Position numbers and translations under genes: made by a program. This document shows, piece after piece, positions 5,396 through 46,108 of a stretch of DNA of 64,000 nt. The stretch is from Acidimicrobiales bacterium (GTDB taxonomy: Bacteria > Actinomycetota > Acidimicrobiia > Acidimicrobiales > Poriferisodalaceae). The stretch is taken from the NCBI GenBank assembly GCA_965116245.1, contig OZ220497.1, forward strand, positions 870,939 to 934,938, read 5' to 3'. The notes under the pieces are model-generated. The model was not told the origin of the DNA. It searched no databases and was given only the letters and a program-made list of their open reading frames with translations. Numbering within the stretch: position 1 is the stretch's first letter; each line of letters begins with the position of its first letter.

Positions 5396-5397
5396 CC

Positions 5398-14931: not shown

Positions 14932-15912
14932 TCACCCGAAGCCAAGGTATGAGGGCACCGGAGCTACGACATCGGCGGTCTCAGCGACCACCATCCACGG
15001 TCCAAAGAACCCCACGAACGCGGCGGTTGGGGCGTACCCGATCGCCGCGAACAAGCGAGCTGGCTGCTGCAGCCCTGCGGGCAGCCGGGCTGCCCCGCGC
15101 TCAATGAACGACCGGCCTGCCCCGTTCACCGCTTCAGAGTGAAGGACCAAAGTGTAGAAACTCGCGTAGGTCGCGACGAACACCATCTCGAATAACGGGA
15201 ATTGGAACTGGCTGCCAGCATTGAGCGTCAGCACCTGCCAGCTGCGCGGATAGGAGTAGATCTCGAGCCCGATGAATGACCACTCCACGACGAGGTCAAT
15301 GAGACACAAGACGGCGAACGTCGGAACCATCGCCCGAGCGAACGACCATGAGGGATTCCGGCGCCGCAGCCATCGAATACCGGCGAGTTGTAACGATCCG
15401 AGACCGATGCCTAGATACAGATATTGCGACGGCGCCCAGAACAGACCCTCTGCGAACCGGGTCGGCCCGTTGTGGCCAGGAACGTATCCGGCCCACGCCC
15501 CGAGGTTGATGGCGTGGTGGCTCCACGCAAACGCATACTCCGAGTAGTTGATCATGGTGTCGATCGGATACGCCAGCAACCCGCCAACCACCAACATGCC
15601 GGACAGAGTCAATCGACCCGCTGCTCGCCACGGCAGATATAGGTAGCGATAGAACGTCCAGACGATCAGGACGATGCTGATGAACTCAATTAGCCGGAGC
15701 GCCGCCACCTTGTAGGGGTTGATCTCGTCGGGCCCAGCGATCGGCATCGGCGCGAATGCTTCACTGTCTGCGACCCACCGTCCTAGCACATACGCAACGA
15801 GTACAATCCAGATCACGCCGAGCATTGACCAGGCCAGCGACCCCGAGCTGGCAGATCGCGCTTGGTCCCTACTGGTTGGGACGCGCTCTCTCGTGGCAGT
15901 CGCGGGTGTCAT
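14932..15912 (-). CDS. AveC-family (spirocyclase/DUF5135-like) integral membrane protein
   Basis: AYVLGRWVADSE, LGAWAGYVPGH, QFQFPLFEM and IERGAARLP line up with my recollection of Streptomyces AveC (AYVFSRWAADGG, SWGPYVPGW, WYQFPVYQ, VERGAWRLP). Start chosen at ATG 15912. Confidence 0.6.
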   Translation of the reverse strand: MTPATATRERVPTSRDQARSASSGSLAWSMLGVIWIVLVAYVLGRWVADSEAFAPMPIAGPDEINPYKVAALRLIEFISIVLIVWTFYRYLYLPWRAAGRLTLSGMLVVGGLLAYPIDTMINYSEYAFAWSHHAINLGAWAGYVPGHNGPTRFAEGLFWAPSQYLYLGIGLGSLQLAGIRWLRRRNPSWSFARAMVPTFAVLCLIDLVVEWSFIGLEIYSYPRSWQVLTLNAGSQFQFPLFEMVFVATYASFYTLVLHSEAVNGAGRSFIERGAARLPAGLQQPARLFAAIGYAPTAAFVGFFGPWMVVAETADVVAPVPSYLGFG

Positions 15913-16318
15913 GGCATCATCTCCGTGCAGCCGGACTCGGTCCGCAGGCTCGGTCCGGAGGTCGCTCACCCACGCAACGCTAGCCGTGTCGCATTCCGAA
16001 ATCAAGCGATGTATGGTTCCGGACGAGGCCCCGGACCACGGTCACTCTGATCGGCGCTATCCGGACCCGGCCGCGGCAGCTCATCGGTCGCGCGACCGGA
16101 AGCGCTCGTCGGCTTACCAGTGAGAGCGTGCTCTCAACTGGTCCGGCGCATGGTCCAGCGCGGAGCGGCGTTCACCCAGTCTCGGGATCCAACGCACCGG
16201 GCGCCGAGCCCTCGCGAACGTCTGGACGCGTGGCGCCCACCGGTACTGCGGCTGCTCTGGCGAACAGTAATTGATCAGTGTTAGTTTATCGCTGCCGCTG
16301 ACCGCCGAGGAGATCACC

Positions 16319-17131
16319 ATGGAAATCAGCTCGTTCCCTCAGCCCCCCGTGGGCATGGAGATGAACACCACCTGGCAGGCGGTATTCACCATCGGTCAGG
16401 CGATCCCGGCCGCGATCATGATCATCATCGCGGTGCTGATGCTGCGACGGTACGGCACTCCAATCCCGCTGTTGTGCCTGGTGGGCGGCGCCGTGGCGAT
16501 CCTCATCGAACCCATTGTCGATGTACTCGGCCTGGTGTGGTTTCCCCGCGAGGGTCAGTGGGTGCTCTTAGAGGCCTTCGGCCGGCCCCTCCCGGTCTTC
16601 CTGATCGTCTACGTGTGGTTCGTCGGCGGCCAGACGTTCCTGGTCTGGCACCGGATGGAGCGAGGCGTCACGACGCGAGGGATATGGCTCATGTACCTCG
16701 CCTTCACCATCATCAACATCCCGACCGAGACACCAGGTCTCTACATGGACCTCTACGCCTACTACGGAGCGCAGCCGTTCACTCCCTTCCGTCTGCCCTT
16801 GATGTGGCCCATCGTGAATGCGCTGATGCCCCTCGCCGCCGCGACCGCCATCTACCGGTTGCGGCCTTACCTCCATGGCTGGCGGATCATCGGGGTTGTC
16901 GCGCTCGTGCCGATGGTTGACGGCACCGTCAACATCGCGACCGCGTTCCCGCTGTACATCACGCTGAACACGAACCTCGGCTTCAAGGCCACTTACCCCG
17001 CCTTCTTCGTCATGCTCGCGCTCGCATTGTTGGTGGTGAAGATCATCACCATCGCCGTAGCGACCGACACCGAGCAACCAGAACGCTCCGCAGTCACCCA
17101 CGACCGCCAGGCCGCGGTGGCCGACGGATAG
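16319..17131 (+). CDS. polytopic membrane protein (possibly distantly AveC-related)
   Basis: ATG 16319 is preceded by GAGGAG. About 7 hydrophobic helices. Confidence 0.55.
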   Translation: MEISSFPQPPVGMEMNTTWQAVFTIGQAIPAAIMIIIAVLMLRRYGTPIPLLCLVGGAVAILIEPIVDVLGLVWFPREGQWVLLEAFGRPLPVFLIVYVWFVGGQTFLVWHRMERGVTTRGIWLMYLAFTIINIPTETPGLYMDLYAYYGAQPFTPFRLPLMWPIVNALMPLAAATAIYRLRPYLHGWRIIGVVALVPMVDGTVNIATAFPLYITLNTNLGFKATYPAFFVMLALALLVVKIITIAVATDTEQPERSAVTHDRQAAVADG

Positions 17132-17287
17132 GCATCGGCGGACCTCAGACGTCGCGCTCACGGTCCACCCACGAGAGGGGATCGTGGGCACGTGGGGCTG
17201 CCTCACTAAATCGCGATCAGAGCTACGTCGTGGCGTAGGAAAGCGCTTTGGCGGGCCGATCGGGGAGGCTTCCCCGACAGATGAGTA

Positions 17288-18091
17288 TCAGCTCCACGAC
17301 TCGCCTTTCGCGGCGTCGGCCTCAGTGTCGGACAGGTAGCCGGTCCGGCGATTCGAGAGGAAGTCGCCTCGGCGTTCTGCGGCTTCGCCAAGCAGATTGA
17401 GTTCGTAGGTGTAGCTGAGTTCGGCGCGGTACCGAGTTCTGATCTCGGCCAACCCGGCTGATCCGTTCAGCGCCCGCTTCAGGCGCCTCACCACAATTGG
17501 CGATTTGTTCGCGATCGTCTGGGCCAGGACCATCGCCTCGTCGCGCAGCGACGACTCATCGACCAGCCGGTAGACGCTCCCGTGTGCTTGAAGCTCCTCG
17601 GCGCTGAAGGGCTCAGCGGTCAGCATCGCGGCGCGCAATCGCTTCTCCGGCAACAAGGCCACGGCCTGAACCCCACCGCTGGTCGCGCCGTTGTCCACCT
17701 CGGCCAGGACGAAGCGTGTGTCGTAGGCGGCAACGATAATGTCGCACATCGCGACGATCAAGACGCCGACGCCGATACAGTACCCGTGGACTGCGGCGAT
17801 GACCGGGACGGCGCATTCGGCTGCCGCGAGGCTGGCTTCTTGTGATCCGCTGGCTTGGCCAAGAATGCCGTCGTGGCTCGACAACGCATGTACTTCCTTT
17901 ACATCGCCGCCACCGCAGAACCCCTTCCCCTCTGCACGCAGCAGTACGGCGCAGACATCGGGTCGGCGTTGGACCCCAGCGAGCCGTTCGGCGAGATCGT
18001 GCAAATCGGCGATACAGAATGCGTTGACGGGTGGGTGCTTGATCACGAGTTCGAGTACACCGTCGGGATGGTGGTGCTCTGTAATCGTCAT
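17288..18091 (-). CDS. enoyl-CoA hydratase/isomerase (crotonase) family protein
   Basis: Contains VLELVIKHPPVNAF...VLLRAEGKGFCGGGDVKE. ATG 18091 is preceded by GAGG. Confidence 0.85.
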   Translation of the reverse strand: MTITEHHHPDGVLELVIKHPPVNAFCIADLHDLAERLAGVQRRPDVCAVLLRAEGKGFCGGGDVKEVHALSSHDGILGQASGSQEASLAAAECAVPVIAAVHGYCIGVGVLIVAMCDIIVAAYDTRFVLAEVDNGATSGGVQAVALLPEKRLRAAMLTAEPFSAEELQAHGSVYRLVDESSLRDEAMVLAQTIANKSPIVVRRLKRALNGSAGLAEIRTRYRAELSYTYELNLLGEAAERRGDFLSNRRTGYLSDTEADAAKGESWS

Positions 18092-18280
18092 GGTTACCTC
18101 ACAGCGGGATCGAACAGTGGCGGACACGGTGGGGAGTCGCTTGTCAACGGAAACACACGGCTCCCGCTGGTGACTGTCGCAAGACACTAGTCAGCTCGCC
18201 ATTGCATAACCAAACATCGTTTGTTAACTTGTTGCCAGACCGGTTCGACACGCGGCCGGCCGGACGTTCGGGAGCCGGAC

Positions 18281-19327
18281 ATGAAGCTCAGCCTGATGAC
18301 CCTCGGTGATCGTCTGCCAGACCCAGTCACCGGCAGGACGATGACGCCGAAAGAGCGCTACGACATGTTGCTCGACTCGGCTGTCCTGGCCGACGCGCTC
18401 GGCTTTCACGGCATCAACCTCGGCGAGCATCATGGCCTGGGCTACGAACTGTCGGCCCCACCGGTGGTGCTAGGCGCAATTGCAACCCAGACCACCCAGC
18501 TCCGCCTGTCGACGGCTGTCGCGCTGCTCGCCAACCTCGATGCCTTTCGCTTGGCCGAGGACTACGCCACCGTTGACGTGATCTCGAACGGCCGGGTCGA
18601 CATCGTCGTCGGGCGTGGCAACTTCTTCGCTTCCACCTATGAGCTCTTCGGCCAGAACGTCGACGAGTCTCGGGCTCGGTTCGACGAGAACCTAGACCTG
18701 GTCTGCCGGCTGTGGAGCGGCGAGGAGACCCACTGGCAGGGCGAGTTCCGGCCGCCGATCAACGGCGAGCCGCTGATGCCCAAGCCACTTCAGCAGGGCA
18801 CCCCACCGATCTGGGTCGGAGGCGGCAGCTCCGAGGACACGGCCCGCATCACCGGCCAGCTTGGCCTCAAACTCATGCTGCCCAGCGCGTTTGGGCCCCC
18901 AGAGAAGTTCCGCGGAGCCGTTGACGTCTACCTCGAGGCCTTCTCCGACGCTGGCCACCACCACGAGCCCGAGGTCGGCGCGAGCTGGCATCTCAACGTC
19001 GCCAAGACAAGCCAGGAAGCACGTGCGCGCTGGGAGCCGCGCTATCGCTGCTACCACGCGTGGACCCAAGACCTCCTGAAGAAGGTGAACCCCAACGTTC
19101 CCGACTACCTGCTGAGGGGGTTCGATTACGAGTGGCTCTGTGCCAGCGGCCCCGCCGTGGTCGGAAGCCCCGCGGAGACCGCCGAGAGGCTCCACAAGCT
19201 CGGCGACATGCTTGGCGCGTCGCTCCACCTCTGCTACGTCGACATGGGTGGGCTGCCCGCTGGCGAATACCTCGAGATGGTGCAGCTACTGGGCGACGAA
19301 GTCCTGCCAGCTCTCGCCGACAAGTAG
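18281..19327 (+). CDS. LLM-class (luciferase-like) flavin-dependent oxidoreductase
   Basis: Contains MKLSLMTLGD...LGFHGINLGEHHG...VVGRGNF. Confidence 0.85.
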   Translation: MKLSLMTLGDRLPDPVTGRTMTPKERYDMLLDSAVLADALGFHGINLGEHHGLGYELSAPPVVLGAIATQTTQLRLSTAVALLANLDAFRLAEDYATVDVISNGRVDIVVGRGNFFASTYELFGQNVDESRARFDENLDLVCRLWSGEETHWQGEFRPPINGEPLMPKPLQQGTPPIWVGGGSSEDTARITGQLGLKLMLPSAFGPPEKFRGAVDVYLEAFSDAGHHHEPEVGASWHLNVAKTSQEARARWEPRYRCYHAWTQDLLKKVNPNVPDYLLRGFDYEWLCASGPAVVGSPAETAERLHKLGDMLGASLHLCYVDMGGLPAGEYLEMVQLLGDEVLPALADK

Positions 19328-19359
19328 CGGGCAAGTCAAACGAGCCGGACGGGGACACA

Positions 19360-21117
19360 ATGGGGGCAATCGACAACTGGGAGACGCTGGATCCCGGCGG
19401 GCTTCACTGGGAACGCGAGGACGTGCATTGGCCCGGCAGGCTCTCGCGCTGGTGCAGCCGCATTATGGTGCGCGACTACGCACGAGGTATCGAAGAACTC
19501 GCCCGAGACCGGGGCTGGCTTATCCAAGGCGTCGGGATACGTGAGGTTGACGGGTGTGTCTACTTCGGTGTCATCCCGATAGGCGGGCGAAACCTGCCAC
19601 AGCCACCGCGATGGCTCGCGCGGATCATCATGCCGCTTGCGCTCAAGGCCATCCCCGAATTCCGTCGGCGGGTGAAGGCGCTCAACCGGGACTACGACAC
19701 CAACTACTGGGCTGGCGTCATCGACGAGTGGACGAGCGAACGCGAGTCGGAGCTGCTCGCCGAAGCAGACCGGCTGCTATCGGCGAATCTCCACGATCTC
19801 ACCGATACCGACCTCGCGAACCTGGCAATCGAGGCGATGGACCACGCGGGCGCATGCATGAAGGAACACTTCCATCTGCACGGCGCCGGGATCCACGCGA
19901 TCTCGATCCTTGGGCGTGAGCTGACCGCACACCACGGGTTCAGCACGGCGGAGTTCGCCGGGCTCTTTGTCGGCCTGAGTGATGCCACAACGGGCCCTGC
20001 CGCTGCCCAACAGAAGATCGTGGATCGCGTACGCGACGCGTCCGCCGAAGATCAGCTACGCCAAGCGGCGACGCTCGATGATGTACGCGGCATCGGCCCC
20101 GCAGTGGGCGATGCGCTCGACGAGTATCTCACCTTCTGGGGTTGTCGAGCGATCCGTTACCAGGTGGCCTTCCCCACTGTCGGCGAGCGACCGGACTGGA
20201 TCCTGTCGGCGCTGCGAACCCAACTCAACAGCCCTTCGGGCACCCCGGACCACAAGAAGCGACAAACGAGACAGCGACAGGAGGCCGAGACCCGAGTCCT
20301 CGCGGCCCTCGGCGACACGGCATCCACCAGGGCGCGCATCTCCCTCGCACAAAAGGCAGCACCGATTCGCGAGGGAAACGAGACCGCGACCGTGGCGCTT
20401 CCCGCCGCCGCGGCTCGATTCATCGGCCTCGAGATGGGCAGGCGCCTAGTCGACCGGGGAGAGCTTGAGGCGCCTGATCATGTGTTCGACCTGGAGGTCG
20501 AGGAAGTCGCCGCCCTGTTGACATCCGGCCCAGAGAGTCCTACCGTGCCGGACAACGCCCGAGAACTCGCAGCGACACGCTACGACCATCGAACGTCAGA
20601 TGCCTCCGAACCGCCGCGCGAGTTCGGCAGGCCCGTTGAGCCACCAGACGTTGAGTTCTTCCCGCCGAGGGTCGCGGAAACGATGGGCGCCCTCCTCTGG
20701 CTCGTCGAAAAGGGCGGCGCTGGCGCGGAGGCGTCAGATGACGGTGATGCAGCCGCCGCCGCGGCAGCCGCCGCCGTGGAGACCGAGCCGGGCGCGCTCC
20801 GGCTCGATGGTGTTGCTGCATCCACCGGCATCTATGAGGGTCCTGCACGAATCATTGGGGGCGAGCACGACTTCGACAAATTGGAGGATGGCGATGTCAT
20901 GGTGTGTCCGATCACCTCGCCGATCTGGTCGATGCTCTTCCCCAAGATCGGCGCATTGGTGTGTGATGCGGGCGGTCCGATGAGCCATCCCGCGATCGTC
21001 GCTCGCGAGTTCGGCATTCCAGCCGTGCTCAACGTGCGGACGGCCACCGAGACGATTCAGGACGGTCAGCTTCTGCGAGTCGATGGCGACAACGGGATTG
21101 TGCTCGCCGTCGACTGA
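19360..21117 (+). CDS. PEP-utiliser swivel-His domain protein with a ~450-aa helical N-terminal region and no ATP-grasp
   Basis: The C-terminus is DGDVMVCPITSPIWSMLFPKIGALVCDAGGPMSHPAIVAREFGIPAV. ATG 19360 lies 32 nt after the LLM stop. Confidence 0.8.
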   Translation: MGAIDNWETLDPGGLHWEREDVHWPGRLSRWCSRIMVRDYARGIEELARDRGWLIQGVGIREVDGCVYFGVIPIGGRNLPQPPRWLARIIMPLALKAIPEFRRRVKALNRDYDTNYWAGVIDEWTSERESELLAEADRLLSANLHDLTDTDLANLAIEAMDHAGACMKEHFHLHGAGIHAISILGRELTAHHGFSTAEFAGLFVGLSDATTGPAAAQQKIVDRVRDASAEDQLRQAATLDDVRGIGPAVGDALDEYLTFWGCRAIRYQVAFPTVGERPDWILSALRTQLNSPSGTPDHKKRQTRQRQEAETRVLAALGDTASTRARISLAQKAAPIREGNETATVALPAAAARFIGLEMGRRLVDRGELEAPDHVFDLEVEEVAALLTSGPESPTVPDNARELAATRYDHRTSDASEPPREFGRPVEPPDVEFFPPRVAETMGALLWLVEKGGAGAEASDDGDAAAAAAAAAVETEPGALRLDGVAASTGIYEGPARIIGGEHDFDKLEDGDVMVCPITSPIWSMLFPKIGALVCDAGGPMSHPAIVAREFGIPAVLNVRTATETIQDGQLLRVDGDNGIVLAVD

Positions 21118-21129: not shown

Positions 21130-21396
21130 CTACCTGGCGAGCGCCACCGTGTGGCGCTCTGTTAACACCTCCATCCCCCACCGACCATTCTCCACGCCAA
21201 CGCCACTCGACTTGACCCCACTGAAGGGCTGATCCACGGCAGCGACAGCGCGTGCGTTAATCCACGTCATGCCAGCATCCAGACGCGACGCCAGCGCGGC
21301 AGCTTGTGCTGGATCAGCGGACCAAATCGAGGAATCAAGCCCGTAGTCGGTAGTGTGGTCATGCGGACGCTCCCCGAGTGAGGAAGCCGCGATCAC
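21130..21396 (-). pseudogene. aldehyde dehydrogenase C-terminal remnant (about 80 aa only)
   Basis: YGLDSSIWSADPAQAAALASRLDAGMTWINA...PFSGVKSSGVGVENGRWGMEVLTERHTV matches the ALDH C-terminus. The upstream ~400 codons are missing, and that space is occupied by the hydrolase gene in another frame. Confidence 0.7.
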
Positions 21397-22540: not shown

Positions 22541-22655
22541 GATGTCCTACTCCTGTCTCGACATCACAATCCACTTACCATACACTGTTTGATTAATGGG
22601 GGTTTCTGACAGGGTTGGCAAGATGGCAAAGGCGCTGTCGCGCGAGCGCCAGCAC

Positions 22656-35720: not shown

Positions 35721-35768
35721 TACGTTGTTGGATTACCGTACGTTGTTTGATTACCGTTTGGTTACCGG
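35721..35768 (+). promoter_or_regulatory. tandem AT-rich box, 2 full copies plus a partial (tacgttgtt[g/t]gattaccg), upstream of the SCP2-P450 operon
   Basis: Read directly. It belongs to the island-wide motif family described in the findings. Confidence 0.5.
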
Positions 35769-35787
35769 TACTGAGAGGATTCAGTGT

Positions 35788-36198
35788 ATGGGCATGTTCC
35801 GGGACGCCGAGGAGCTGTACACCGTCCAAGGCGGCTTCTTCGACCTCATCACGGTCGATTCAAGCCTCGGACCCAAGTTCGCAGCATCCAACACATCGTT
35901 CCTCGTGAAATACACCGCCCCCGAGGCCTTCATCCTCGTGGACTGCACTGGTGACGAGAACCAGGTCATCTACCCGGCCAGCCCCGACACGGATGCGGAG
36001 ATCACCCTCACCATGGAGGCCGATGCGGGGCACCGGTTCTGGCTCGGCGACCTCAACCTCACCGGAGCGATCGCTCGGCGAAAGGTCACGATCCATGGCT
36101 CGATGAAGGACGCGCTCCGTCTGCTTCCGGCGATGAAGCCTGCCTTCCCGAAGTACCGCACCTACTGCGTTGAGAACGGCCACGCAGACAAGATCTGA
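35788..36198 (+). CDS. SCP2 sterol-carrier-like lipid-binding domain protein
   Basis: 136 aa. GHRFWLGDLNLTGAIARRKVTIHGSMKDALRLLPAMKPAFPKY is typical of actinobacterial SCP2 proteins. Confidence 0.7.
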   Translation: MGMFRDAEELYTVQGGFFDLITVDSSLGPKFAASNTSFLVKYTAPEAFILVDCTGDENQVIYPASPDTDAEITLTMEADAGHRFWLGDLNLTGAIARRKVTIHGSMKDALRLLPAMKPAFPKYRTYCVENGHADKI

Positions 36199-41250: not shown

Positions 41251-43161
41251 TCAGCCCGCTATGCCGACGTCTGCGCCGCCTCCATCGCGCCGTTCTTCGA
41301 GGAGCTGCTTGAGACGCGCCGACAAGCTCGTGAGGCCGTCGGGCATGAGAGTGAGGGTGAGCAACACCAGGAGGCCGCTTGCCAGATCGATGACATCGGG
41401 GGAAGCGCCGAGTTCACTGGCGAGGTACGTGAGCAGTCCACCGGAGACCAGCATCCCGGCGACGACCCCGCCCCCGGCGGCGCCAACACCACCGATCACG
41501 ACCACCACGAGCAGGAACACGGACTGGAGCGAGACGAAGGAAGCGGCCGACACTCGGCCTGATCGATAGCCCAGCAGAGCGCCGCCAGCGGCCGCCATCG
41601 ATGCTGAGATCGAGAACGCGAGCAGTTTCACTCGAGGAACCGAGATCCCGACGCCCTCGGCCCCTCGCTCGTTGATCCGTACCGCGAGAAACGACTGACC
41701 GGCTGGCCTGCTTCGGATCAACTGAACGACGAGGCAGGCCAGCGCTAGTGCGATCACCACCACTACGCCAAATCGCCGTGGATGTTCGAAGCTGTCGAGG
41801 CTCCAACCGGCGAGGCTCGGTCGCGGAAACTCGATCCCTTCAGGGAAACGATCACGGTCGCTGAAAAACATCTCGTCGAACATCACGGCAACACCGAGCG
41901 TCACGATGGCGAGGTTCACGCCGCGGACCCGAATCGACGGTGCGCCAAGGGCGAGACCGATCGGGAAAACGAGGAGGACCGCAACGAGGACCGGGAGCGG
42001 GAAAGGGAGGTTAAGACTGATCGCTGCCCATGACCCGAACGCCGCGCCGAGCCCGGCGAAGGTCATTTGGGCGAGTGAGAGCTGCCCCACGAAACCCACC
42101 ACGAGCACGAGCGACACGGCGACGATCGCGAGAATGGCGCTTCGAGTCAGCGGATCGATGATCGCGGACGGGCCCAGAACCATGGCCGCACCCCCCACCG
42201 CTGCGACGGCCGCTGGCAACCGGGCCGGTTTCTTGACCGGTGGTGCGGCGGGGAGACTGCTTTCGAAAGAAACCTCACGAGTCGGAATCGCGCTGCCCGT
42301 GGCGACAATGACGACGATCAGGACGATGAAGGGCACGGCTTCGGGCCACCCAGGCAAGCCGGTGAACTCGGAGATATCGGCGATCCGGCCGCTGACCACC
42401 GCCTGGACTGCTGCGACGGCGAGACTCGCAACGAGGGCCACAACGACCGATCGGAAACCGGCGATTGCTGCAGTGGCGAGCGCCACGACAACGAGCAGGG
42501 TCAGGCCCAAGACCGAAACGGTCGTGATGCTCGAGAGCAAGACCCCGGCGAATCCCGACAGCGCTCCACCGAGCATCCAGTTCGACGTCGAGGCGATGTC
42601 GGGGCTGTGACCGCTCAGCGAGACCCCCGCCTCGCCGTCGGCCATGGCGCGACTCACAAGGCCGAAGGACGTGTTTCGATAGACGGCGGCGACGATGACC
42701 ACGACGACCGTCGCCGTCACCAGAATGAACAAACGGTCTCTCGTGAGGACATAGTCCCCGGGGAGCGTGAACGTCCCCCGTTCGAAGAGCCGAACCTGCG
42801 GGGTGCTTCCGTCGACGAGGAACAGGTTCACGACGGCTTGCACGACGACGAGCAACCCGAGCGTTGCCGTCACCCGGACGAACATGGCCGCGGACCGCAG
42901 CCGACGCATGACGAGCCAGTCGAAGAGACCGGCAACGGCCGCCGCGGCCACCGTGCCAACGATCGCTGCAGGCACAGCGCCGAGGCGATCCCCGTCGGCG
43001 TGGACCCACGCAGCGACATAGGCACCGAGAGCAGCGAGCGCCCCAGTTCCCAGATTGAGTGTCTTCGATCCTCGGTAGATGACGATGAGGGCGAGAGCCA
43101 AAAGCCCGTAGGCCGCGCCAGCGCCCACGCTTGCCAACGCGATCTGCAGATCGAACCTCAC
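41251..43161 (-). CDS. fused LivH/LivM-type branched-chain amino acid ABC permease
   Basis: About 636 aa with two permease halves. GTG 43161 overlaps the livF stop (GTGA). Confidence 0.8.
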   Translation of the reverse strand: MRFDLQIALASVGAGAAYGLLALALIVIYRGSKTLNLGTGALAALGAYVAAWVHADGDRLGAVPAAIVGTVAAAAVAGLFDWLVMRRLRSAAMFVRVTATLGLLVVVQAVVNLFLVDGSTPQVRLFERGTFTLPGDYVLTRDRLFILVTATVVVVIVAAVYRNTSFGLVSRAMADGEAGVSLSGHSPDIASTSNWMLGGALSGFAGVLLSSITTVSVLGLTLLVVVALATAAIAGFRSVVVALVASLAVAAVQAVVSGRIADISEFTGLPGWPEAVPFIVLIVVIVATGSAIPTREVSFESSLPAAPPVKKPARLPAAVAAVGGAAMVLGPSAIIDPLTRSAILAIVAVSLVLVVGFVGQLSLAQMTFAGLGAAFGSWAAISLNLPFPLPVLVAVLLVFPIGLALGAPSIRVRGVNLAIVTLGVAVMFDEMFFSDRDRFPEGIEFPRPSLAGWSLDSFEHPRRFGVVVVIALALACLVVQLIRSRPAGQSFLAVRINERGAEGVGISVPRVKLLAFSISASMAAAGGALLGYRSGRVSAASFVSLQSVFLLVVVVIGGVGAAGGGVVAGMLVSGGLLTYLASELGASPDVIDLASGLLVLLTLTLMPDGLTSLSARLKQLLEERRDGGGADVGIAG

Positions 43162-43850
43162 GAAGACCCTCCGAGGTAGCTGGCTTCCAAGGCGGTACGG
43201 TTGGCCAACAGCGCCTGCGCCGTCTCCTCCATGGTGACCCTTCCCAGCGAGAGCACGTAGGCCCGGCTCGCGGTGTGGAGTGATTGCCGGACATGTTGCT
43301 CGACGAGCACGACGGCAAGGTTGCGATCCGCTGCTGCTTCGCAAAGCCGCTCAAGCAATCGATCGACGACCCGCGGCGCCAGCCCGAGCGAGAGCTCGTC
43401 GACGAAGAACAGGCGAGGGCGCGTCGCCAGGGCTCTCGCCAGCGCCACCATCTGTTGCTCGCCACCGGACAAGAGTCCGGCCCGTAGGTTGAGCTTGTCG
43501 TGGAGTTCGGGGAACAGGTCGACGATCGAGCGGTCGCCTCGGCGAACGAGCCGCAGGTTCTCTGCGACGGTCAACCCCGACACGATGCCGCGTTCCTCGG
43601 GCACGAGCGCCATCCCTGCCCTGACCCGCCAATGCGGCGGAGTGTCGCGGAGGTCATCGCCATCGAACCGGACCGAGCCCGCCATAGGGCGTATGAAGCC
43701 CATGATGGTCGAGAGCAACGTCGTCTTTCCTGCGCCGTTCGGCCCGAGGATCGCCACGATCTCGCCAGCCTCGACATCGATGTCGACCTCGTGGACCGCG
43801 GCGTTGTTCCCGTAGCCCGCGACCAGACCGGTTACTTTGAGCAGGCTCAT
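43158..43850 (-). CDS. livF: ABC transporter ATP-binding protein, LivF type
   Basis: Contains GPNGAGKTT, LSGGEQQM and FVDE. Confidence 0.9.
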   Translation of the reverse strand: MSLLKVTGLVAGYGNNAAVHEVDIDVEAGEIVAILGPNGAGKTTLLSTIMGFIRPMAGSVRFDGDDLRDTPPHWRVRAGMALVPEERGIVSGLTVAENLRLVRRGDRSIVDLFPELHDKLNLRAGLLSGGEQQMVALARALATRPRLFFVDELSLGLAPRVVDRLLERLCEAAADRNLAVVLVEQHVRQSLHTASRAYVLSLGRVTMEETAQALLANRTALEASYLGGSS

Positions 43851-44590
43851 GCGCCCGATCCCAAGTAGGCCTCGACGACCCGGGGATCGGCCACAACCTC
43901 CATGGGATTTCCTGAGGCGATGAGTTCGCCGAAGTCGAGGACGAACAGATCGTCGCAGACCTTGAGGACGAGGGACATGTCGTGATCGATCAGCAAGATC
44001 CCTACCCCTGTCGACGCGATCGCTCGCAGCACGTCACCCAGCTCTGCAGTCTCATCGTGATCGAGACCCGCCGCGGGCTCGTCGACCAAGAGACACGAGG
44101 GTTGGCACATCAGAGCCCGAGCGAGAGCCACCCGCCGGAGATCACCCGCTGACAGGTCAGCAGCGGGCGTGTCCGCGAGGTGCGAGACACCCAGGAGGTT
44201 CAACACCGTCGCGGGCTCGAACGAACCATCGCGCCGAGACCCCGCACCCGCGACCGTGAGGTTCTCGCCAACTGTCAGATCATCAAACAGCTCGAGGTTC
44301 TGGAATGTCCGGACGAGGCCTGCGCGCACTCGCCGACTCGGCTTCATCGCGCCCAGCGACTCATCACCGAGCAAGACTTCGCCCGAGCGCACCGGAAGGA
44401 AACCAGTGACCGCGTCAACGAGGGTGGTCTTCCCCGCTCCATTGGCTCCGACCAGCCCCACGACCCGGCCCGGTTCTACGACAAGGGTCACATCGTGAAC
44501 TACGCGTGTCGACCCATAGGCGACATCAAGGTTCCGGATGGCGAGCGCGCGGCGGCAGTCATGTTCCAGTACGTCCCAGATGCCGCTCAT
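43847..44590 (-). CDS. livG: ABC transporter ATP-binding protein, LivG type
   Basis: Contains GANGAGKTT, LSAGDLRRV and LVDEPAAGL. Confidence 0.9.
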   Translation of the reverse strand: MSGIWDVLEHDCRRALAIRNLDVAYGSTRVVHDVTLVVEPGRVVGLVGANGAGKTTLVDAVTGFLPVRSGEVLLGDESLGAMKPSRRVRAGLVRTFQNLELFDDLTVGENLTVAGAGSRRDGSFEPATVLNLLGVSHLADTPAADLSAGDLRRVALARALMCQPSCLLVDEPAAGLDHDETAELGDVLRAIASTGVGILLIDHDMSLVLKVCDDLFVLDFGELIASGNPMEVVADPRVVEAYLGSGA

Positions 44591-44824
44591 CTCCCCCCTG
44601 TCCCACCGCCTCGGCCCTCTCTGGCGGGGTCGGCGTATCCCAACGCCAGTTGATTACCAACGACAGACCTCGCCAGCGGGGCACGCCCGCAGGCGAGCAC
44701 TCCCTCCCAACGGCCTGCCGCGCTGCGTGTTCGGAAGGCTACTTGATAATCTAGCAGTGTTAGGCAACTATGGTCTCATTGTCGGAGGTGAAAGTCGCCT
44801 CCACGAGCATCTAGGGAGAAGACC

Positions 44825-46108
44825 ATGTTCAAGGGGAAGCGACTCGCCATCGCCATCATGTTGCTGTTCGCACTCGTCGCCGCGTCGTGCGGTTCCGACG
44901 ATGACAACTCCACGGTGTCGGATGGCGACGCCGCAGACAGTGCCGCGACCGAGGAACAAGAGGCAACGGGAGCCGACGAAGCGGAGCCAGCCGAAGAAGA
45001 CCCAGTGGAACAAGACCCTGCCGAAGAGGAGCCCCAGGCAGCGGCGCCTTCCGGCGAGCCGATTCGGGTTGCCAACATCTTCTCCCAGGCAGGCCCGATC
45101 GATCTCCACTTCACACCGGCAGGATTCGATGCCTGGGTGGCGGACGTCAACAGTCGAGGCGGCATCCACGGGCGCCCGGTTGAGGTCGTGAGCTGCAACG
45201 ACGAACTCGATCCCGCGTTGAACGAGGAGTGCGCCCGTTCGATCGTCGGCGACGACACGATCATCGCCGTAGCAGGCGGAATCGCAGGGCTCGAACCATG
45301 GATCCCGATCCTCACCGAAAGCGGAGTCGGCGCAATCACGAGCATTCCCACCACGCTTGGCGAGTTCAACGCTCCGAACTTCCTCGCGATCGGAGGTGGC
45401 GCCATCGGCGGCTACGCGAACCTCTTGGCCGACGCGGTCGCGAGCGGCTACGGACGAATTGCTTTCATCCGAACGGATCTTCCGACCGGCAACCAAGCCG
45501 CCAGCATCTTCACCGCCTTCCAAGCCCAGATCCCCGGGTGGGAGTTCATCGACGTTCCGGTAAACGAAGGGGCCGCCGACTTCCTGCCAGCCGTCCAGAA
45601 CGCACTGTCGCAGAACGCCGACTACATCACCACTGGCCTCACCGGCGCTGCCGCAGCGAGGGTCGCACTCGATGCGCAGTCACTCGGCTTCGAAGGGACC
45701 GTCTCACTCATCGGGGGCGGGTTCGACCCAGCGTTGCTCGAGGTCGAGGGATTCGTCCTGACCGCCGACTTCCCCGATCCGAGTGGCAGCTCCGCGGTCA
45801 TCGAGGCCTACCGCGCCAACCTGGCCAATCCCGACGACATCGGCGACGCATCGCTCGGTGGGTACTTCGCCGGACTGACCCTGGAAGAAATCCTCGTCGA
45901 ACTCAGCCCTGACAATCTAACCCGCGAGGCTGTACTCGCCCGCATCGAAGATCCGACACCGCTCACGGTGCCCGAACTTGGCGACCTCGAGGCTGGGTTC
46001 TTCCCGCTGGCCCCACGGCTCGCACGGTCGGCTTCGTGGATTGTGACGGTCGAGGACGGCGAGCTCGTCTACGGCAATCCCGTCGATGCCCTCGGCGCCG
46101 CTGGCTGA
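44825..46108 (+). CDS. ABC substrate-binding lipoprotein (LivJ/type-I periplasmic binding fold)
   Basis: Has a lipobox (LVAASCGS), then an acidic low-complexity linker, then the PBP domain. Confidence 0.8.
   Translation: MFKGKRLAIAIMLLFALVAASCGSDDDNSTVSDGDAADSAATEEQEATGADEAEPAEEDPVEQDPAEEEPQAAAPSGEPIRVANIFSQAGPIDLHFTPAGFDAWVADVNSRGGIHGRPVEVVSCNDELDPALNEECARSIVGDDTIIAVAGGIAGLEPWIPILTESGVGAITSIPTTLGEFNAPNFLAIGGGAIGGYANLLADAVASGYGRIAFIRTDLPTGNQAASIFTAFQAQIPGWEFIDVPVNEGAADFLPAVQNALSQNADYITTGLTGAAAARVALDAQSLGFEGTVSLIGGGFDPALLEVEGFVLTADFPDPSGSSAVIEAYRANLANPDDIGDASLGGYFAGLTLEEILVELSPDNLTREAVLARIEDPTPLTVPELGDLEAGFFPLAPRLARSASWIVTVEDGELVYGNPVDALGAAG

What the first reader, a model, noticed from the sequence alone, without database searches (positions are those of the whole stretch)
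14932..46108. A ~31-kb accessory catabolic island for a hydrophobic (branched lipid / isoprenoid / sterol-like) substrate, inserted between conserved housekeeping blocks
The gene set combines:
- 2 P450s, 2 amine-oxidase-fold flavoenzymes, an LLM monooxygenase, a Zn-ADH and a VOC protein
- SCP2 lipid carrier
- a crotonase, an MCR-like racemase, a second family-III CoA-transferase and an acyl-CoA synthetase
- an alpha/beta hydrolase, a TetR regulator, membrane proteins and an ABC importer

This is the toolkit seen in sterol side-chain or methyl-branched lipid degradation, but none of the classic sterol ring-opening genes is present. No ferredoxin or ferredoxin reductase accompanies the P450s.

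The flanks are core genes (mshA, hem genes, dut, orn, serS). The island differs from them in two ways visible by eye:
- It almost lacks the ~15-nt tandem micro-duplications that pepper both flanks.
- Its codons look more G/C-ending. Single 60-nt spot counts gave 70% and 63% GC inside, against 62% and 48% in the flanks. These counts are anecdotal only.

It also contains two gene stubs, which suggests ongoing remodelling.
Basis: partly seen in the sequence, partly recalled or inferred. Interest (0 to 1): 0.6.

Follow-up and report, generated by a model that had tools for sequence, protein, structure and literature searches.

The report
Acquired isoprenoid-type catabolic island, sponge symbiont
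A 31-kb block of degradation genes was recently inserted into the chromosome of a sponge-associated actinobacterium, and besides P450s and CoA enzymes it carries an unusual 'phosphorylate the alcohol, then eliminate the phosphate' enzyme pair related to one known so far only from anaerobic cholesterol breakdown.

Summary
Window ~14.83-46.2 kb is a 31.4-kb insertion. In at least 12 related 'Ca. Poriferisodalis' genomes the histidine phosphatase is followed directly by tRNA-Lys and dut. Island genes have GC3 0.78, against 0.66-0.69 in the flanks (p=7e-10). The island holds 3 of the window's 18 short tandem arrays (p=0.005). Two gene stubs are real.

Two corrections:
- The host core has drifted AT-ward, not the island. 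The same core genes in relatives have GC3 0.78-0.87. The island is 90-94% identical to a copy at a different chromosomal site in 'Ca. Poriferisocius' OZ241977.1.

The DUF7065/7064 model's best structural match is 25-phosphosteroid lyase, and it keeps that enzyme's RDxxWGxR motif. In 41 of 48 assessable metagenomic loci this DUF sits beside a kinase or sulfotransferase.

Together with a P450cin-like and a CYP125/142-like P450, an alpha-methylacyl-CoA racemase, an acyl-CoA synthetase, a crotonase, SCP2 and a Liv-type importer, the best reading is aerobic catabolism of an isoprenoid, alicyclic or sterol-side-chain-like compound that includes an ATP-driven alcohol dehydration. The substrate is unproven.

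The parts
14607..14789 (-). Small conserved ORF (~60 aa) between HisPhos and the island. It is the last element of the left flank shared with relatives.
   Evidence: blastn homology to L001-L018 ends at 14727-14741. Sequences were read directly. No Pfam hit.
14790..14931 (.). Left junction of the insertion
   Evidence: No direct or inverted repeat of 9 bp or more is shared with the right junction.
14932..16005 (-). AveC-like multi-pass membrane protein
   Evidence: Pfam PF17198, 8.7e-23. Hydrophobic segments. 90% aa identity to the Poriferisocius copy.
16271..17131 (+). Membrane protein of unknown family ('hyp286'). Its homologues recur next to APH-DUF7065 gene pairs.
   Evidence: No Pfam or NCBIfam hit. 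A homologue lies within 3.5 kb of DUF7065 in 18 of 80 metagenomic loci.
17151..17210 (-). Gene stub: last 20 aa of a PDH-E1-like gene that is intact in OZ241977.1
   Evidence: tblastn, 80% identity over residues 787-806 of 807. The extra genes are seen in L090.
17288..18187 (-). Enoyl-CoA hydratase/isomerase (crotonase)
   Evidence: Pfam ECH_1, 1.8e-34. NCBIfam PRK07938, 224 bits, below its cut-off of 260.
18221..19327 (+). Luciferase-like flavin monooxygenase
   Evidence: Pfam Bac_luciferase, 8e-55. Best PDB match 2i7g, 2e-43.
19360..21117 (+). PEP-utilizer protein 1: unknown N-terminal ~480 aa plus a C-terminal swivelling phospho-His domain (GGPMSHPAIVARE). No ATP-grasp domain. Start approximate.
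   Evidence: The orthologue in L090 carries precomputed Pfam Rph_4th + PEP-utilizers.
21359..22540 (-). Alpha/beta hydrolase
   Evidence: Pfam Hydrolase_4 and Abhydrolase_1.
22596..24857 (+). PPDK-like protein: ATP-grasp nucleotide domain plus phospho-His domain (GGTVSHAAVVARS), then a ~240-aa C-terminal region of unknown fold. It has no PEP/pyruvate TIM barrel.
   Evidence: Matches PDB PPDK residues 11-510, E 1e-112. NCBIfam PRK05878, 470 bits against a cut-off of 456. No Pfam hit for the C-terminal region. Fusions with an Rph_4th protein exist: P0244 and P0346.
24850..26037 (+). Family-III CoA-transferase (succinyl-CoA:dicarboxylate type). Reduced to a 46-aa stub in the Poriferisocius copy.
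   Evidence: Pfam CoA_transf_3, 2e-119. NCBIfam hits are below their cut-offs. Stub seen.
26034..27554 (+). Acyl-CoA synthetase (AMP-binding)
27699..28421 (-). TetR-family regulator
28569..29123 (-). VOC/glyoxalase-fold protein
29192..30298 (-). Zn-dependent alcohol dehydrogenase (class III/NDMA-type)
30313..30453 (-). Gene stub: first 48 aa of an SDR gene. Two SDR genes are intact here in OZ241977.1.
   Evidence: tblastn, 62.5% identity over residues 1-48 of 245. The SDR genes are seen in L090.
30450..31640 (-). Cytochrome P450 whose closest solved relative is P450cin (CYP176A, a monoterpene hydroxylase)
   Evidence: PDB 2.5e-70, against 2.6e-53 for the next family. Haem motif FGLGIHRCLG and I-helix AGIDTT.
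31740..32882 (-). Alpha-methylacyl-CoA racemase-like protein
   Evidence: PDB match to M. tuberculosis MCR 1x74, 5e-90, and Far 2g04, 1.5e-81.
32966..34294 (-). Amine-oxidase-fold flavoprotein a (HpnE/PPOX/CrtI-like)
   Evidence: 35% identical to its neighbour.
34369..35712 (+). Amine-oxidase-fold flavoprotein b, the divergently transcribed paralogue
   Evidence: It has GFICNRAA where CtmAB and delta-24-SD have the covalent-FMN histidine.
35725..36198 (+). SCP2-fold lipid-binding protein
   Evidence: Pfam SCP2, 2e-5, above the cut-off.
36207..37511 (+). Cytochrome P450 whose closest solved relatives are the CYP125/CYP142 steroid C26-monooxygenases. It is not well separated from other families.
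   Evidence: PDB 1.7e-45 to 4e-42. Haem motif FGTGTHHCIG.
37683..38378 (-). Membrane protein of unknown family ('hyp231')
38601..39575 (+). DUF7065/DUF7064 protein, the predicted phosphoester (C-O) lyase. Double beta-barrel of the AttH/CrtC fold. Invariant R172, D173, W176, G177 and R179.
   Evidence: Pfam. AF2 model, pLDDT 94.7. Foldseek top hit is 25-phosphosteroid lyase 9g4c/9fzn, E 1e-11. The only PDB hit of the family profile is 25-PSL, with the motif aligned. Kinase adjacency.
39572..41209 (+). PEP-utilizer protein 2: equals rifampin phosphotransferase minus its ATP-grasp domain (substrate-binding helical domain plus swivelling His domain, GGSMSHGAIVARE). It abuts the lyase gene.
   Evidence: NCBIfam RIF_Ptrans_rph positions 561-860. 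AF2 model, pLDDT 90. Foldseek match to RPH 5fbt, E 9e-22, TMq 0.69.
41251..43161 (-). Fused LivH/LivM-type ABC permease (start approximate)
   Evidence: Pfam BPD_transp_2, two stretches. The orthologue is 636 aa.
43158..44590 (-). LivF and LivG ABC ATPases
44825..46108 (+). LivK-type substrate-binding lipoprotein (lipobox VAASC). Its linker contains the island's one 15-nt tandem array, at 44987-45027.
   Evidence: The array is polymorphic in run X2.
46109..46290 (.). Right junction. Homology to the Poriferisocius copy ends at 46151. Homology to relatives' empty sites resumes at ~46215-46284.
46293..46368 (+). tRNA-Lys(UUU). The island lies on its 5' side.

Best explanation
The block is a horizontally acquired accessory catabolic island.

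Origin.
- A sponge-associated Acidimicrobiia lineage received it from a co-resident relative with the clade's normal high GC3. The recipient's own core genome is drifting AT-ward and accumulating 15-nt tandem duplications.
- A near-identical copy sits at another chromosomal site in 'Ca. Poriferisocius'.
- No integrase or border repeats are present. The site next to tRNA-Lys is a hotspot for insertions in this clade.

Proposed function (inferred): uptake and aerobic degradation of an isoprenoid, alicyclic or sterol-side-chain-like compound.
1. A Liv-type ABC importer, three membrane proteins and an SCP2 carrier handle the substrate.
2. Two P450s (P450cin-like and CYP125/142-like), a luciferase-like monooxygenase, a Zn-ADH and two flavoproteins oxidise it. 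An alpha/beta hydrolase may open an ester or lactone.
3. An acyl-CoA synthetase or CoA-transferase makes the thioester.
4. An alpha-methylacyl-CoA racemase and a crotonase feed a methyl-branched chain into beta-oxidation.

The distinctive step is an ATP-driven dehydration.
1. The PPDK-like protein supplies the ATP-grasp activity (ATP to AMP + Pi + His~P).
2. The phosphoryl group passes via a swivelling histidine to a hydroxyl held in the rifampin-phosphotransferase-like substrate domain of PEP-utilizer protein 2. A second substrate would be served by protein 1.
3. The neighbouring DUF7065/7064 protein eliminates phosphate to give an alkene, as 25-phosphosteroid lyase does.
4. This would remove an alcohol that cannot be oxidised directly, such as a tertiary one.

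The confidence of 0.55 is for the whole statement. By part it is about 0.9 for acquisition by transfer, about 0.6 for isoprenoid-type catabolism, and about 0.5 for the kinase-plus-lyase dehydration.
For: Shown: the island was inserted and transferred.
- The site is empty in at least 12 related species, and other cargo occupies it in 5 more.
- Both junctions are spanned by independent contigs from two samples.
- The whole island is 90-94% nt identical to OZ241977.1, where it has different flanks (KatG, Fur). Core genes of the nearest species are only 72-83% aa identical.
- GC3 contrast, p=7e-10.
- Relatives' core GC3 is 0.78-0.87.
- Flank genes in Poriferisocius have GC3 0.71-0.86.
- The window's copy is AT-shifted: 1140 versus 903 sites, p=1.7e-7.

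Shown: the parts of the dehydration module.
- The PPDK-like protein has ATP-grasp and His domains but no TIM barrel.
- All three PEP-utilizer proteins keep the phospho-His motif.
- The PEP-utilizer 2 model matches rifampin phosphotransferase over its whole length, E 9e-22, TMq 0.69.
- Natural fusions of the two protein types exist, P0244 and P0346.
- The best structural match of the DUF7065/64 model is 25-phosphosteroid lyase.
- The family profile's only PDB hit is that enzyme. The invariant RDxxWGxR motif aligns, and the product/phosphate complex 9g4c carries Asn at the aligned Asp.
- A kinase or sulfotransferase gene lies next to DUF7065 in 41 of 48 assessable metagenomic loci, and also in Alteromonas and M. 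lentiflavum.

Shown: the catabolic toolkit.
- MCR-like protein, 5e-90.
- P450cin-like P450, 2.5e-70.
- CYP125/142-like P450.
- ACS, ECH, CoA-transferase, SCP2 and Liv importer.
- The same toolkit recurs around DUF7065 in soil loci L147 and L149 and in M. lentiflavum L091.

Background from the literature. Phosphorylation of a tertiary C25 alcohol by 25-HSK, followed by elimination, is established in Sterolibacterium (PMC8449060, PMC11061730).
Against: - No enzyme here has been assayed, and the substrate is unknown.
- Identity to 25-PSL is only 14-15%. AttH (2ich), of unknown function, matches the model equally well. The profile-to-sequence hit is marginal (E 0.057).
- The Sterolibacterium kinase is APH-type, not dikinase-type. 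Its pathway is anaerobic and molybdenum-dependent, and none of that is present here.
- The island lacks acyl-CoA dehydrogenase, thiolase, aldehyde dehydrogenase and P450 redox partners, so it cannot be a complete pathway.
- There are about 13 strand switches, and modules differ between the two copies. The genes may therefore serve more than one pathway.
- Liv-type importers usually carry polar solutes.
- Transfer in trans from the PPDK-like protein to the two ATP-grasp-less proteins is inferred only from fusions and from the precedent of phenylphosphate synthase (own knowledge).
- The donor assignment rests on five flank genes in one genome.
Confidence: 0.55

Rival explanations
1. The island is a patchwork of two or more unrelated modules that travel together, not one pathway. 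Candidate modules are a CoA/monooxygenase module at 14.9-30.3 kb and a P450/flavoprotein/kinase-lyase/importer module at 30.3-46.1 kb.
For: - There are many divergently transcribed units.
- The two known copies differ by whole-gene indels at module borders: PDH-E1 + HisPhos, two SDRs, and CoA-transferase a.
- The PPDK-like gene is only 82% nt identical between copies, against 90-94% elsewhere.
- Contig L081 and soil loci L147 and L149 carry only the right-hand gene set.
Against: - The ATP-grasp donor (22596-24857) lies in the left part, while one of its presumed clients and the lyase lie in the right part.
- Both halves have the same GC3 and stay collinear in both genomes.
- Soil loci L147 and L149 combine the P450s, PEP-utilizer, DUF7065, PPDK-like protein, ACS and MCR.
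Confidence: 0.2
2. The island tailors or makes a secondary metabolite (biosynthetic) and does not degrade a nutrient.
For: - It has an AveC-like protein, a family named after the avermectin spirocyclase.
- The PEP-utilizer proteins also resemble the prodigiosin ligases PigC and RedH.
- The P450s score against natural-product P450 models.
- The beta-oxidation core is absent.
Against: - No PKS, NRPS, terpene synthase or prenyltransferase is present.
- It has an ABC importer with a substrate-binding lipoprotein.
- MCR, ECH and ACS are present, and FadE pairs lie in the related M. lentiflavum locus.
Confidence: 0.08
3. The phosphotransferases are resistance or detoxification enzymes. Like rifampin phosphotransferase, they would inactivate a toxic sponge or microbial metabolite, and the rest of the island is incidental.
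For: - The whole-length fold matches rifampin phosphotransferase.
- A TetR regulator and a hydrolase lie nearby.
- The setting is a sponge, which is rich in bioactive compounds.
Against: - The architecture is split, with three His-domain proteins.
- The tight pairing with a 25-PSL-like lyase means the phosphoester is processed further and not left as an inactive end product.
- The genes are embedded among CoA-thioester enzymes in several phyla.
Confidence: 0.08
4. The block is ancestral and was lost repeatedly from relatives, so no horizontal transfer occurred.
For: - No integrase, transposase or border repeats are present.
- The island's GC3 equals the clade norm.
Against: - It is absent from this site in all 80 species loci, and at least 12 show a clean empty site.
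- It lies at a different site in Poriferisocius.
- It is 90-94% nt identical there, while core genes are 72-83% aa identical to the nearest species.
- It escaped the host's GC3 decline and its tandem duplications.
Confidence: 0.04

Closest known systems
25-hydroxysteroid kinase (25-HSK) plus 25-phosphosteroid lyase (25-PSL) of Sterolibacterium denitrificans: ATP-dependent dehydration of a tertiary side-chain alcohol
   Same: - The logic is the same: phosphorylate an alcohol, then eliminate phosphate to form an alkene.
- The lyase has the same double-barrel fold and the RDxxWGxR motif with the Asp that is mutated in the product complex.
- Most DUF7065/64 genes elsewhere sit beside APH-type kinases. 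One such APH matches PDB 9fsg at 3e-51; 9fsg may be 25-HSK, but this is unverified.
   Different: - Identity to 25-PSL is only 14-15%.
- There is a single lyase gene, whereas the 25-PSL entries have two distinct chains.
- The partner here is a split PPDK/rifampin-phosphotransferase-type dikinase, not an APH kinase.
- The context is aerobic (P450s) with no molybdenum hydroxylases.
- The kinase and lyase genes are adjacent here but unlinked in Sterolibacterium (PMC8449060).
Rifampin phosphotransferase (RPH)
   Same: - PEP-utilizer 2 superposes on the rifampin-binding and swivelling-His domains of RPH-Lm (E 9e-22, TMq 0.69).
- It keeps the catalytic His motif.
   Different: - The ATP-grasp domain is missing from both PEP-utilizer proteins and is encoded on a separate PPDK-like protein that has its own His domain.
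- Identity is 18-19%.
- The genomic context is catabolic and paired with a lyase.
Pyruvate phosphate dikinase, and the short mycobacterial 'PPDK' (NCBIfam PRK05878)
   Same: - The ATP-grasp and phospho-His domains align to PPDK residues 11-510, E 1e-112.
- The protein passes the PRK05878 cut-off.
   Different: - It has no PEP/pyruvate-binding TIM barrel. Instead there is a 240-aa C-terminal region with no family match.
- It therefore cannot make PEP in the way PPDK does.
Phenylphosphate synthase of Thauera aromatica (own knowledge, not tested here)
   Same: It is a split dikinase in which a separate ATP-binding subunit phosphorylates the histidine of a substrate-binding subunit. This is the precedent for the in-trans model proposed here.
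   Different: It acts on phenol in an anaerobic carboxylation pathway. No sequence comparison was made.
Aerobic sterol side-chain and methyl-branched lipid catabolism of mycobacteria (CYP125/CYP142, FadD, MCR, ChsE/ChsH, Ltp2)
   Same: - A CYP125/142-like P450, an acyl-CoA synthetase, MCR, a crotonase and an SCP2-fold protein are present.
   Different: - There are no Mce4 transporter, acyl-CoA dehydrogenases, thiolase/aldolase, KstD, KshAB or HsaA-D.
- The P450 similarity is modest.
Monoterpene catabolism (P450cin/P450cam-type hydroxylase, alcohol dehydrogenase, luciferase-type Baeyer-Villiger monooxygenase, lactone hydrolase, CoA ligase)
   Same: - The P450cin-like P450 is the clearest P450 assignment.
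- A Zn-ADH, a luciferase-like monooxygenase, an alpha/beta hydrolase and an ACS are all present.
   Different: - There are no cindoxin or putidaredoxin-type partners.
- The luciferase-like protein's nearest relatives are uncharacterised.
- The I-helix keeps the Thr.
Limonene dehydrogenase CtmAB and delta-24 steroid desaturase (paired phytoene-desaturase-like flavoproteins)
   Same: - There are two adjacent paralogous amine-oxidase-fold flavoproteins (35% identical).
- The source paper notes homologues in Acidimicrobiales and Halieaceae (PMC11061730).
   Different: - The proteins here are smaller (442 and 447 aa, against 57-63 kDa).
- The covalent-FMN histidine of the G-F-L/R-x-N/S-T/L-H-A motif is absent.

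Membership tests
Horizontally acquired genomic island | Absent from the orthologous site in close relatives | tested here: met
   HisPhos is directly followed by tRNA-Lys/dut in at least 12 species. None of the 80 loci carries island genes at this site.
Horizontally acquired genomic island | Composition differs from the host core | tested here: met
   GC3 is 0.778 against 0.658 and 0.690, p=7e-10. Tetranucleotide contrast is weak.
Horizontally acquired genomic island | The same block occurs elsewhere at a different locus with more similarity than the core | tested here: met
   It is 90-94% nt identical to OZ241977.1, where the flanks are KatG and Fur. Core identity to the nearest species is 72-83% aa. 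The core identity to OZ241977.1 itself could not be measured.
Horizontally acquired genomic island | Integrase or transposase and flanking direct repeats | tested here: not met
   No such Pfam domains occur in any island ORF. No repeat of 9 bp or more is shared between the borders. The island lies 5' of tRNA-Lys, whereas relatives' insertions lie 3' of it.
25-phosphosteroid-lyase-like C-O lyase | AttH/CrtC-type double beta-barrel fold | tested here: met
   AF2 model pLDDT 94.7. Foldseek rank 1 is 9g4c_B, E 1.1e-11, TM 0.57-0.65.
25-phosphosteroid-lyase-like C-O lyase | RDxxWGxR motif, including the Asp replaced by Asn in the product/phosphate complex | tested here: met
   R172, D173, W176, G177 and R179 are invariant in 54 family members. 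They align to 25-PSL SRDRSWGVR; 9g4c has SRNRSWGVR. That the Asp is catalytic is inferred from the deposited variant.
25-phosphosteroid-lyase-like C-O lyase | Works with a kinase that makes the phosphoester | tested here: met
   The gene abuts the RPH-like gene in the window. A kinase or sulfotransferase is adjacent in 41 of 48 assessable loci, and in L082, L086 and L091. The kinase family differs from 25-HSK.
25-phosphosteroid-lyase-like C-O lyase | Significant sequence homology to 25-PSL | tested here: inconclusive
   The profile search gives E 0.057, as the only PDB hit. Identity in the structural alignment is 14-15%.
25-phosphosteroid-lyase-like C-O lyase | Phosphate elimination activity on a phosphorylated alcohol | not testable with these tools
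   This needs an enzyme assay.
Rifampin-phosphotransferase-type dikinase | Swivelling phospho-His domain with the conserved His | tested here: met
   GGPMSHPAIVARE, GGSMSHGAIVARE and GGTVSHAAVVARS. Pfam PEP-utilizers hits.
Rifampin-phosphotransferase-type dikinase | Helical substrate-binding domain like the rifampin-binding domain | tested here: met
   Shown for PEP-utilizer 2: Foldseek match over ~590 columns, TMq 0.69, and NCBIfam RPH positions 561-860. Not modelled for PEP-utilizer 1.
Rifampin-phosphotransferase-type dikinase | ATP-grasp domain in the same polypeptide | tested here: not met
   It is absent from both PEP-utilizer proteins and present on the separate 753-aa protein. Fused forms exist elsewhere.
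Pyruvate phosphate dikinase | C-terminal PEP/pyruvate-binding TIM-barrel domain | tested here: not met
   The alignment to PPDK stops at residue ~510. There is no PEP-utilizers_C hit, and the C-terminal 241 aa have no Pfam match.
Aerobic steroid-nucleus degradation cluster | KstD, KshAB, HsaA-D and Mce4 | tested here: not met
   None of these domains (Rieske, FAD_binding_2 KstD type, extradiol HsaC type, MCE) occurs in any island gene.
Alpha-methylacyl-CoA racemase | Full-length similarity to characterised MCR, well above other family-III CoA-transferases | tested here: met
   5e-90 to M. tuberculosis MCR, against 1.8e-36 for the best non-racemase. Catalytic residues were not checked.
Limonene dehydrogenase / delta-24 steroid desaturase | Covalent-FMN histidine in the G-F-L/R-x-N/S-T/L-H-A motif | tested here: not met
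   AOb has GFICNRAA and AOa has GYRFDVGA.
Liv-type (HAAT) ABC importer | Peripla_BP_6 binding protein, two permease domains and two ATPases | tested here: met
   (lipobox).

The most novel reading that the evidence does not exclude
DUF7065/DUF7064 proteins are a widespread family of 'activated-alcohol' lyases. They eliminate phosphate, and perhaps sulfate, from hydroxyl groups that are first activated by one of three interchangeable partners:
- APH-type kinases (the common case),
- split rifampin-phosphotransferase/PPDK-type dikinases (this island),
- sulfotransferases (the sponge Halieaceae locus).

If so, the ATP-dependent dehydration discovered in anaerobic cholesterol degradation is one instance of a general strategy that is also used aerobically. 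It would serve to get past non-oxidisable alcohols in isoprenoid and steroid catabolism. In this island one PPDK-like ATP-grasp/His protein would serve two different substrate-binding subunits.
Probability: 0.35. Interest if true: 0.75.

Novelty: new variant of a known kind. Interest (0 to 1): 0.62.

Why it matters
- It gives a testable function to a domain-of-unknown-function family, DUF7065/7064. The family is found in Actinobacteria, Gammaproteobacteria and even fungi. It also assigns a role to a common class of 'PEP-utilizing enzyme' and 'pyruvate phosphate dikinase' annotations that cannot be real PPDKs.
- It extends the kinase-plus-lyase dehydration, so far known from one anaerobic cholesterol degrader, to aerobic, P450-based pathways and to a different phosphoryl-transfer machinery.
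- It shows gene flow of a complete catabolic block between co-resident sponge symbionts.
- It offers a natural clock. Freshly imported DNA has so far escaped the recipient's AT-drift and its burst of 15-nt tandem duplications.

Tried and rejected
- Exact-match look-ups of window proteins (dut and the PPDK-like P0241) found no public contig record. The window's own assembly could therefore not be named.
- No paper in the library mentions 'Poriferisodalis', DUF7065/7064 or the 25-PSL structures. The sponge-sterol paper PMC9531527 concerns biosynthesis and was not relevant.
- Low-threshold Pfam scans gave nothing for hyp286, hyp231, the PPDK-like C-terminus, the N-terminal parts of the PEP-utilizer proteins or the small ORF.
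- BLASTP found no relationship among the three island membrane proteins.
- The two PEP-utilizer proteins share only the His domain.
- The tetranucleotide signature on 8-kb pieces was too noisy to separate the island from the flanks (within island 0.44, within flanks 0.34, between them 0.27).
- Rfam found only the tRNA.
- No RNA-seq run holding the island was identified, so expression is unknown.
- I considered and rejected a CtmAB/delta-24-desaturase identity for the flavoprotein pair, because the motif histidine is absent.
- I rejected a true PPDK identity, because there is no TIM barrel.
- I rejected classical tRNA-targeted integration, because there is no integrase and the island lies on the 5' side of the tRNA.

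Full report
**1. What organism and what flanks**

The dut protein finds its closest relatives (88-91% aa) in metagenome-assembled genomes of 'Candidatus Poriferisodalis', Microthrixaceae and Acidimicrobiales. Public runs holding this DNA are from one host organism, and related variants occur in sponge, coral and marine metagenomes.

The flanks are core genes:
- Left: cytochrome c, a MenJ-like reductase, hemL, hemD, hemC, hemA, a SAM hydrolase, proC, mshA, a membrane protein and a histidine phosphatase.
- Right: tRNA-Lys, dut, a K+ channel, orn, an MBL hydrolase, TlpA/CcdA-type proteins, serS, a nucleobase permease and cytochrome oxidase.

**2.

*Synteny.* tblastn of all window proteins against 80 species-level loci centred on dut shows that the histidine phosphatase is followed within 0.4-1.3 kb by tRNA-Lys and dut. 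This holds in L001-3, 6, 7, 10, 14-17, 22 and 24. No locus has any island gene there.

*Borders.* Nucleotide alignment places the left border after a small conserved ORF (14607-14789, minus strand) and the right border at about 46215-46284. This gives about 31.4 kb.

*Assembly check.* An independent 74.7-kb Logan contig from run X1 covers 13000-48500 without a mismatch. A diverged strain in a second sample (X2) has contigs across both junctions. The junctions are therefore not assembly artefacts.

*Other insertions at the site.* Five related genomes carry other insertions here: an IS110 element in L012, and a large PPC-domain protein plus a zeta-toxin-like kinase in L009 and L005. Wherever the tRNA could be located (L009, L012, L019), these lie on the 3' side of tRNA-Lys, whereas this island lies on its 5' side. 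No integrase, transposase or border repeat was found in the window's island.

**3. Composition and repeats**

- Every island gene has GC3 of 0.73 or higher (mean 0.778). Flank genes average 0.658 on the left and 0.690 on the right (Mann-Whitney p=7e-10). Total GC differs by only 1-3 points.
- Short tandem arrays (period 12-18, or double that) number 15 in the flanks and 3 in the island (binomial p=0.0047).
The comparison with relatives reverses that reading. The same core genes in 19 close species have GC3 0.78-0.87 and 0-3 arrays per 20 kb. It is therefore the recipient's core that has drifted AT-ward and acquired in-frame 15-nt duplications. An example is the ~90-aa repeat-rich insertion in mshA.
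- Two other low-GC3 lineages, L022 and L024, also have many arrays.
- The arrays are still changing. Strain X2 differs by +15 nt at 45019 and -15 nt at 47089.

**4. Where the island came from**

- The whole block is present, collinear, at 90-94% nt identity in 'Ca. Poriferisocius sp.' OZ241977.1. The PPDK-like gene is the exception at 82%. There the right flank is a catalase-peroxidase and Fur, not tRNA-Lys/dut.
- A 7.1-kb contig from another run carries the same genes at 92% identity.
- The flank genes in OZ241977.1 have GC3 0.71-0.86, like the island.
- Where the two copies differ, the window's copy has A/T 1140 times and the other copy has A/T 903 times (p=1.7e-7). This is as expected if the island is being ameliorated towards its new host.
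- The two copies show reciprocal losses. The window keeps only a 20-aa stub of a PDH-E1-like gene (17151-17210) and a 48-aa stub of an SDR gene (30313-30453). OZ241977.1 keeps only a 46-aa stub of CoA-transferase a.

**5. What the genes are**

- Two P450s, two amine-oxidase-fold flavoproteins, a luciferase-like monooxygenase, a Zn-ADH, a VOC protein and SCP2.
- A crotonase, two family-III CoA-transferases, an acyl-CoA synthetase, an alpha/beta hydrolase and TetR.
- Three membrane proteins and a five-component Liv-type importer with a lipoprotein binding protein.

Sharper assignments:
- 31740-32882 is an alpha-methylacyl-CoA racemase relative (5e-90).
- 30450-31640 is closest to P450cin, with a 17-order E-value gap to the next family.
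- 36207-37511 is closest to the CYP125/CYP142 steroid C26-monooxygenases, though not clearly separated from others.
- The two flavoproteins are 35% identical paralogues. They lack the covalent-FMN histidine that defines limonene dehydrogenase and delta-24 steroid desaturase (PMC11061730).
- No ferredoxin, ferredoxin reductase, acyl-CoA dehydrogenase, thiolase or steroid-ring enzyme is encoded.

**6. The part that was missed**

Three genes encode proteins with the swivelling phospho-histidine domain of PEP-utilising enzymes. All three keep the catalytic histidine.

- *22596-24857* aligns to the ATP-grasp and His domains of pyruvate phosphate dikinase (E 1e-112). It lacks the pyruvate/PEP barrel and ends in 240 residues of unknown type.
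- *39572-41209* has no ATP-grasp domain. Its AlphaFold model (pLDDT 90) superposes over its whole length on rifampin phosphotransferase (E 9e-22, TMq 0.69). All other hits cover only the His domain.
- *~19360-21117* has a different N-terminal region.
- Proteins that fuse the two types exist in other organisms: P0244 (1304 aa) and P0346. This argues that the types work together, with the ATP-grasp protein charging the histidine of the substrate-binding proteins. That transfer is inferred, not shown.

**7. The lyase candidate**

- The gene abutting 39572-41209 encodes a DUF7065/DUF7064 protein.
- Its model (pLDDT 94.7) is a double beta-barrel. Its best match in the PDB is 25-phosphosteroid lyase (9g4c, 9fzn, 9g2i; E 1e-11). 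AttH follows at the same level, then kievitone hydratase and fungal Diels-Alderases.
- A profile of 54 family members hits only 25-PSL among 177,635 PDB sequences. The hit is weak (E 0.057).
- The family's invariant R-D-x-x-W-G-x-R aligns with SRDRSWGVR of the lyase. The deposited product/phosphate complex carries Asn at that Asp.
- Gene neighbourhood supports a kinase partnership. Of 80 metagenomic DUF7065 loci:
  - 34 have an APH-type kinase within 700 bp;
  - 4 have an RPH/PPDK-type gene;
  - 1 has both;
  - 2 have a sulfotransferase within 3 kb;
  - only 7 loci with enough flank have none.
- The same adjacency is seen in Alteromonas sp. M12 (APH), a sponge Halieaceae MAG (sulfotransferase, plus a full-length RPH-like gene) and Mycobacterium lentiflavum (APH).
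- The M. lentiflavum locus and two soil loci (L147, L149) repeat much of the island's toolkit: P450s, an acyl-CoA synthetase and a PEP-utilizer protein. M. lentiflavum adds amine-oxidase flavoproteins and ECH; the soil loci add a PPDK-like gene, MCR and Liv genes.
- In Sterolibacterium, an APH-type kinase phosphorylates the tertiary C25 alcohol of the cholesterol side chain, and a lyase then forms the delta-24 alkene (PMC8449060, PMC11061730).

**8. Synthesis**

*Shown:*
- A recently imported 31.4-kb accessory block.
- Its gene families.
- A split dikinase.
- A 25-PSL-like protein that is statistically tied to kinases.

*Inferred:*
- The island degrades an isoprenoid, alicyclic or sterol-side-chain-like compound aerobically.
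- One step is an ATP-driven dehydration of an alcohol that cannot be oxidised directly.
- Methyl-branched acyl-CoA products are racemised and hydrated for beta-oxidation by enzymes partly encoded elsewhere.

*Rivals:* a patchwork of modules, a tailoring/biosynthetic role, detoxification, or vertical inheritance with loss. Each is given with its evidence in the Rival explanations section.

*Status:* the substrate is not identified and nothing has been assayed.

*Novelty:* genomic islands with catabolic cargo are common. What is new here is the pairing of a rifampin-phosphotransferase/PPDK-type dikinase with a 25-phosphosteroid-lyase-like protein in an oxygen-dependent context. The general kinase association of the DUF7065/7064 family is also new.

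Noticed in passing
window 8340-8387, 10488-10532, 11921-12000, 12499-12549, 14008-14059, 47091-47128, 51542-51594, 63610-63671 (and the intergenic arrays 830-1144, 14577-14630, 46235-46295, 52087-52178): Core genes of this genome carry in-frame 15-nt (pentapeptide) tandem duplications that are absent from orthologues in close relatives. Affected genes include the SAM hydrolase, mshA, the histidine phosphatase and a TlpA-like protein. Copy number differs between two host samples (+15 nt at 45019, -15 nt at 47089 in run X2). Two other low-GC3 lineages (L022, L024) show the same density. This looks like a lineage-specific slippage or repair defect that accompanies AT drift.
   Followed up: partly
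window flanks 1-14800 and 46300-64000, compared with L001-L019: The host's core genes have GC3 0.66-0.69, while the same genes in 19 related species have 0.78-0.87. The genome contig is reported as 2.9 Mb, against 3.4-4.7 Mb for the related complete chromosomes listed. This suggests ongoing genome erosion in this symbiont.
   Followed up: partly
window 10651-12144 (mshA): mshA carries a ~90-aa repeat-rich insertion near its N-terminus. As a result it scores below the NCBIfam equivalog cut-off (362 against 462.5 bits), although the rest aligns to MshA.
   Followed up: no
window 14607-14789 (-): A small acidic ORF (~60 aa, ...DELDAIEDELARAERTLSLLADDE...) is conserved at 75-81% nt between the histidine phosphatase and tRNA-Lys in many relatives. 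It has no Pfam family.
   Followed up: no
L002 9710-9960; L011 9578-9960; L009, L012, L019, L005, L013: The tRNA-Lys/dut interval is a variable hotspot. L011 has one intact tRNA-Lys plus three degenerate copies. L002 has only tRNA fragments. L012 carries an IS110 transposase. L009 and L005 carry a ~1180-aa PPC-domain protein and a zeta-toxin-like kinase.
   Followed up: partly
L086 (Halieaceae sponge MAG JAPOQD010000073.1) 1-20978; L083 16893-19428: In sponge-associated Gammaproteobacteria the DUF7065 gene is surrounded by several Sulfotransfer_3 genes, DUF1214, Rieske oxygenases and a full-length RPH-like gene. This hints at a sulfate-ester variant of the activate-then-eliminate scheme, or a link to sulfated sponge lipids.
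   Followed up: no
L093-L095, L101-L103, L107, L108, L110, L119, L130, L133, L138 etc.; window 16271-17131: Homologues of the uncharacterised membrane protein 'hyp286' recur beside APH-DUF7065 gene pairs (18 of 80 loci). It is probably a third component of that module, either for uptake or as a membrane-embedded enzyme.
   Followed up: partly
L147 and L149 (soil metagenome contigs Ga0137415_10000996 and Ga0137412_10000830): These soil loci carry LivHM, LivG, two P450s, a PEP-utilizer, DUF7065, a PPDK-like gene, ACS and MCR in one block. The right-hand gene set of the island is therefore not sponge-specific.
   Followed up: no
L091 16722-18921 (Mycobacterium lentiflavum): The APH gene next to a DUF7064 gene matches PDB 9fsg ('aminoglycoside phosphotransferase-like protein', 3e-51), M. 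tuberculosis Rv3168 (3ats) and the kinase domain of ACAD11. The 9fsg accession lies close to those of the 25-PSL entries, so it may be 25-hydroxysteroid kinase. This is unverified.
   Followed up: no
L092 1629-5543 (P0244, 1304 aa): A natural fusion in the order Rph_4th, His domain, PPDK_N, His domain sits next to amidohydrolase, amidase and ECH genes. This suggests the split dikinase is also used in other catabolic contexts.
   Followed up: no
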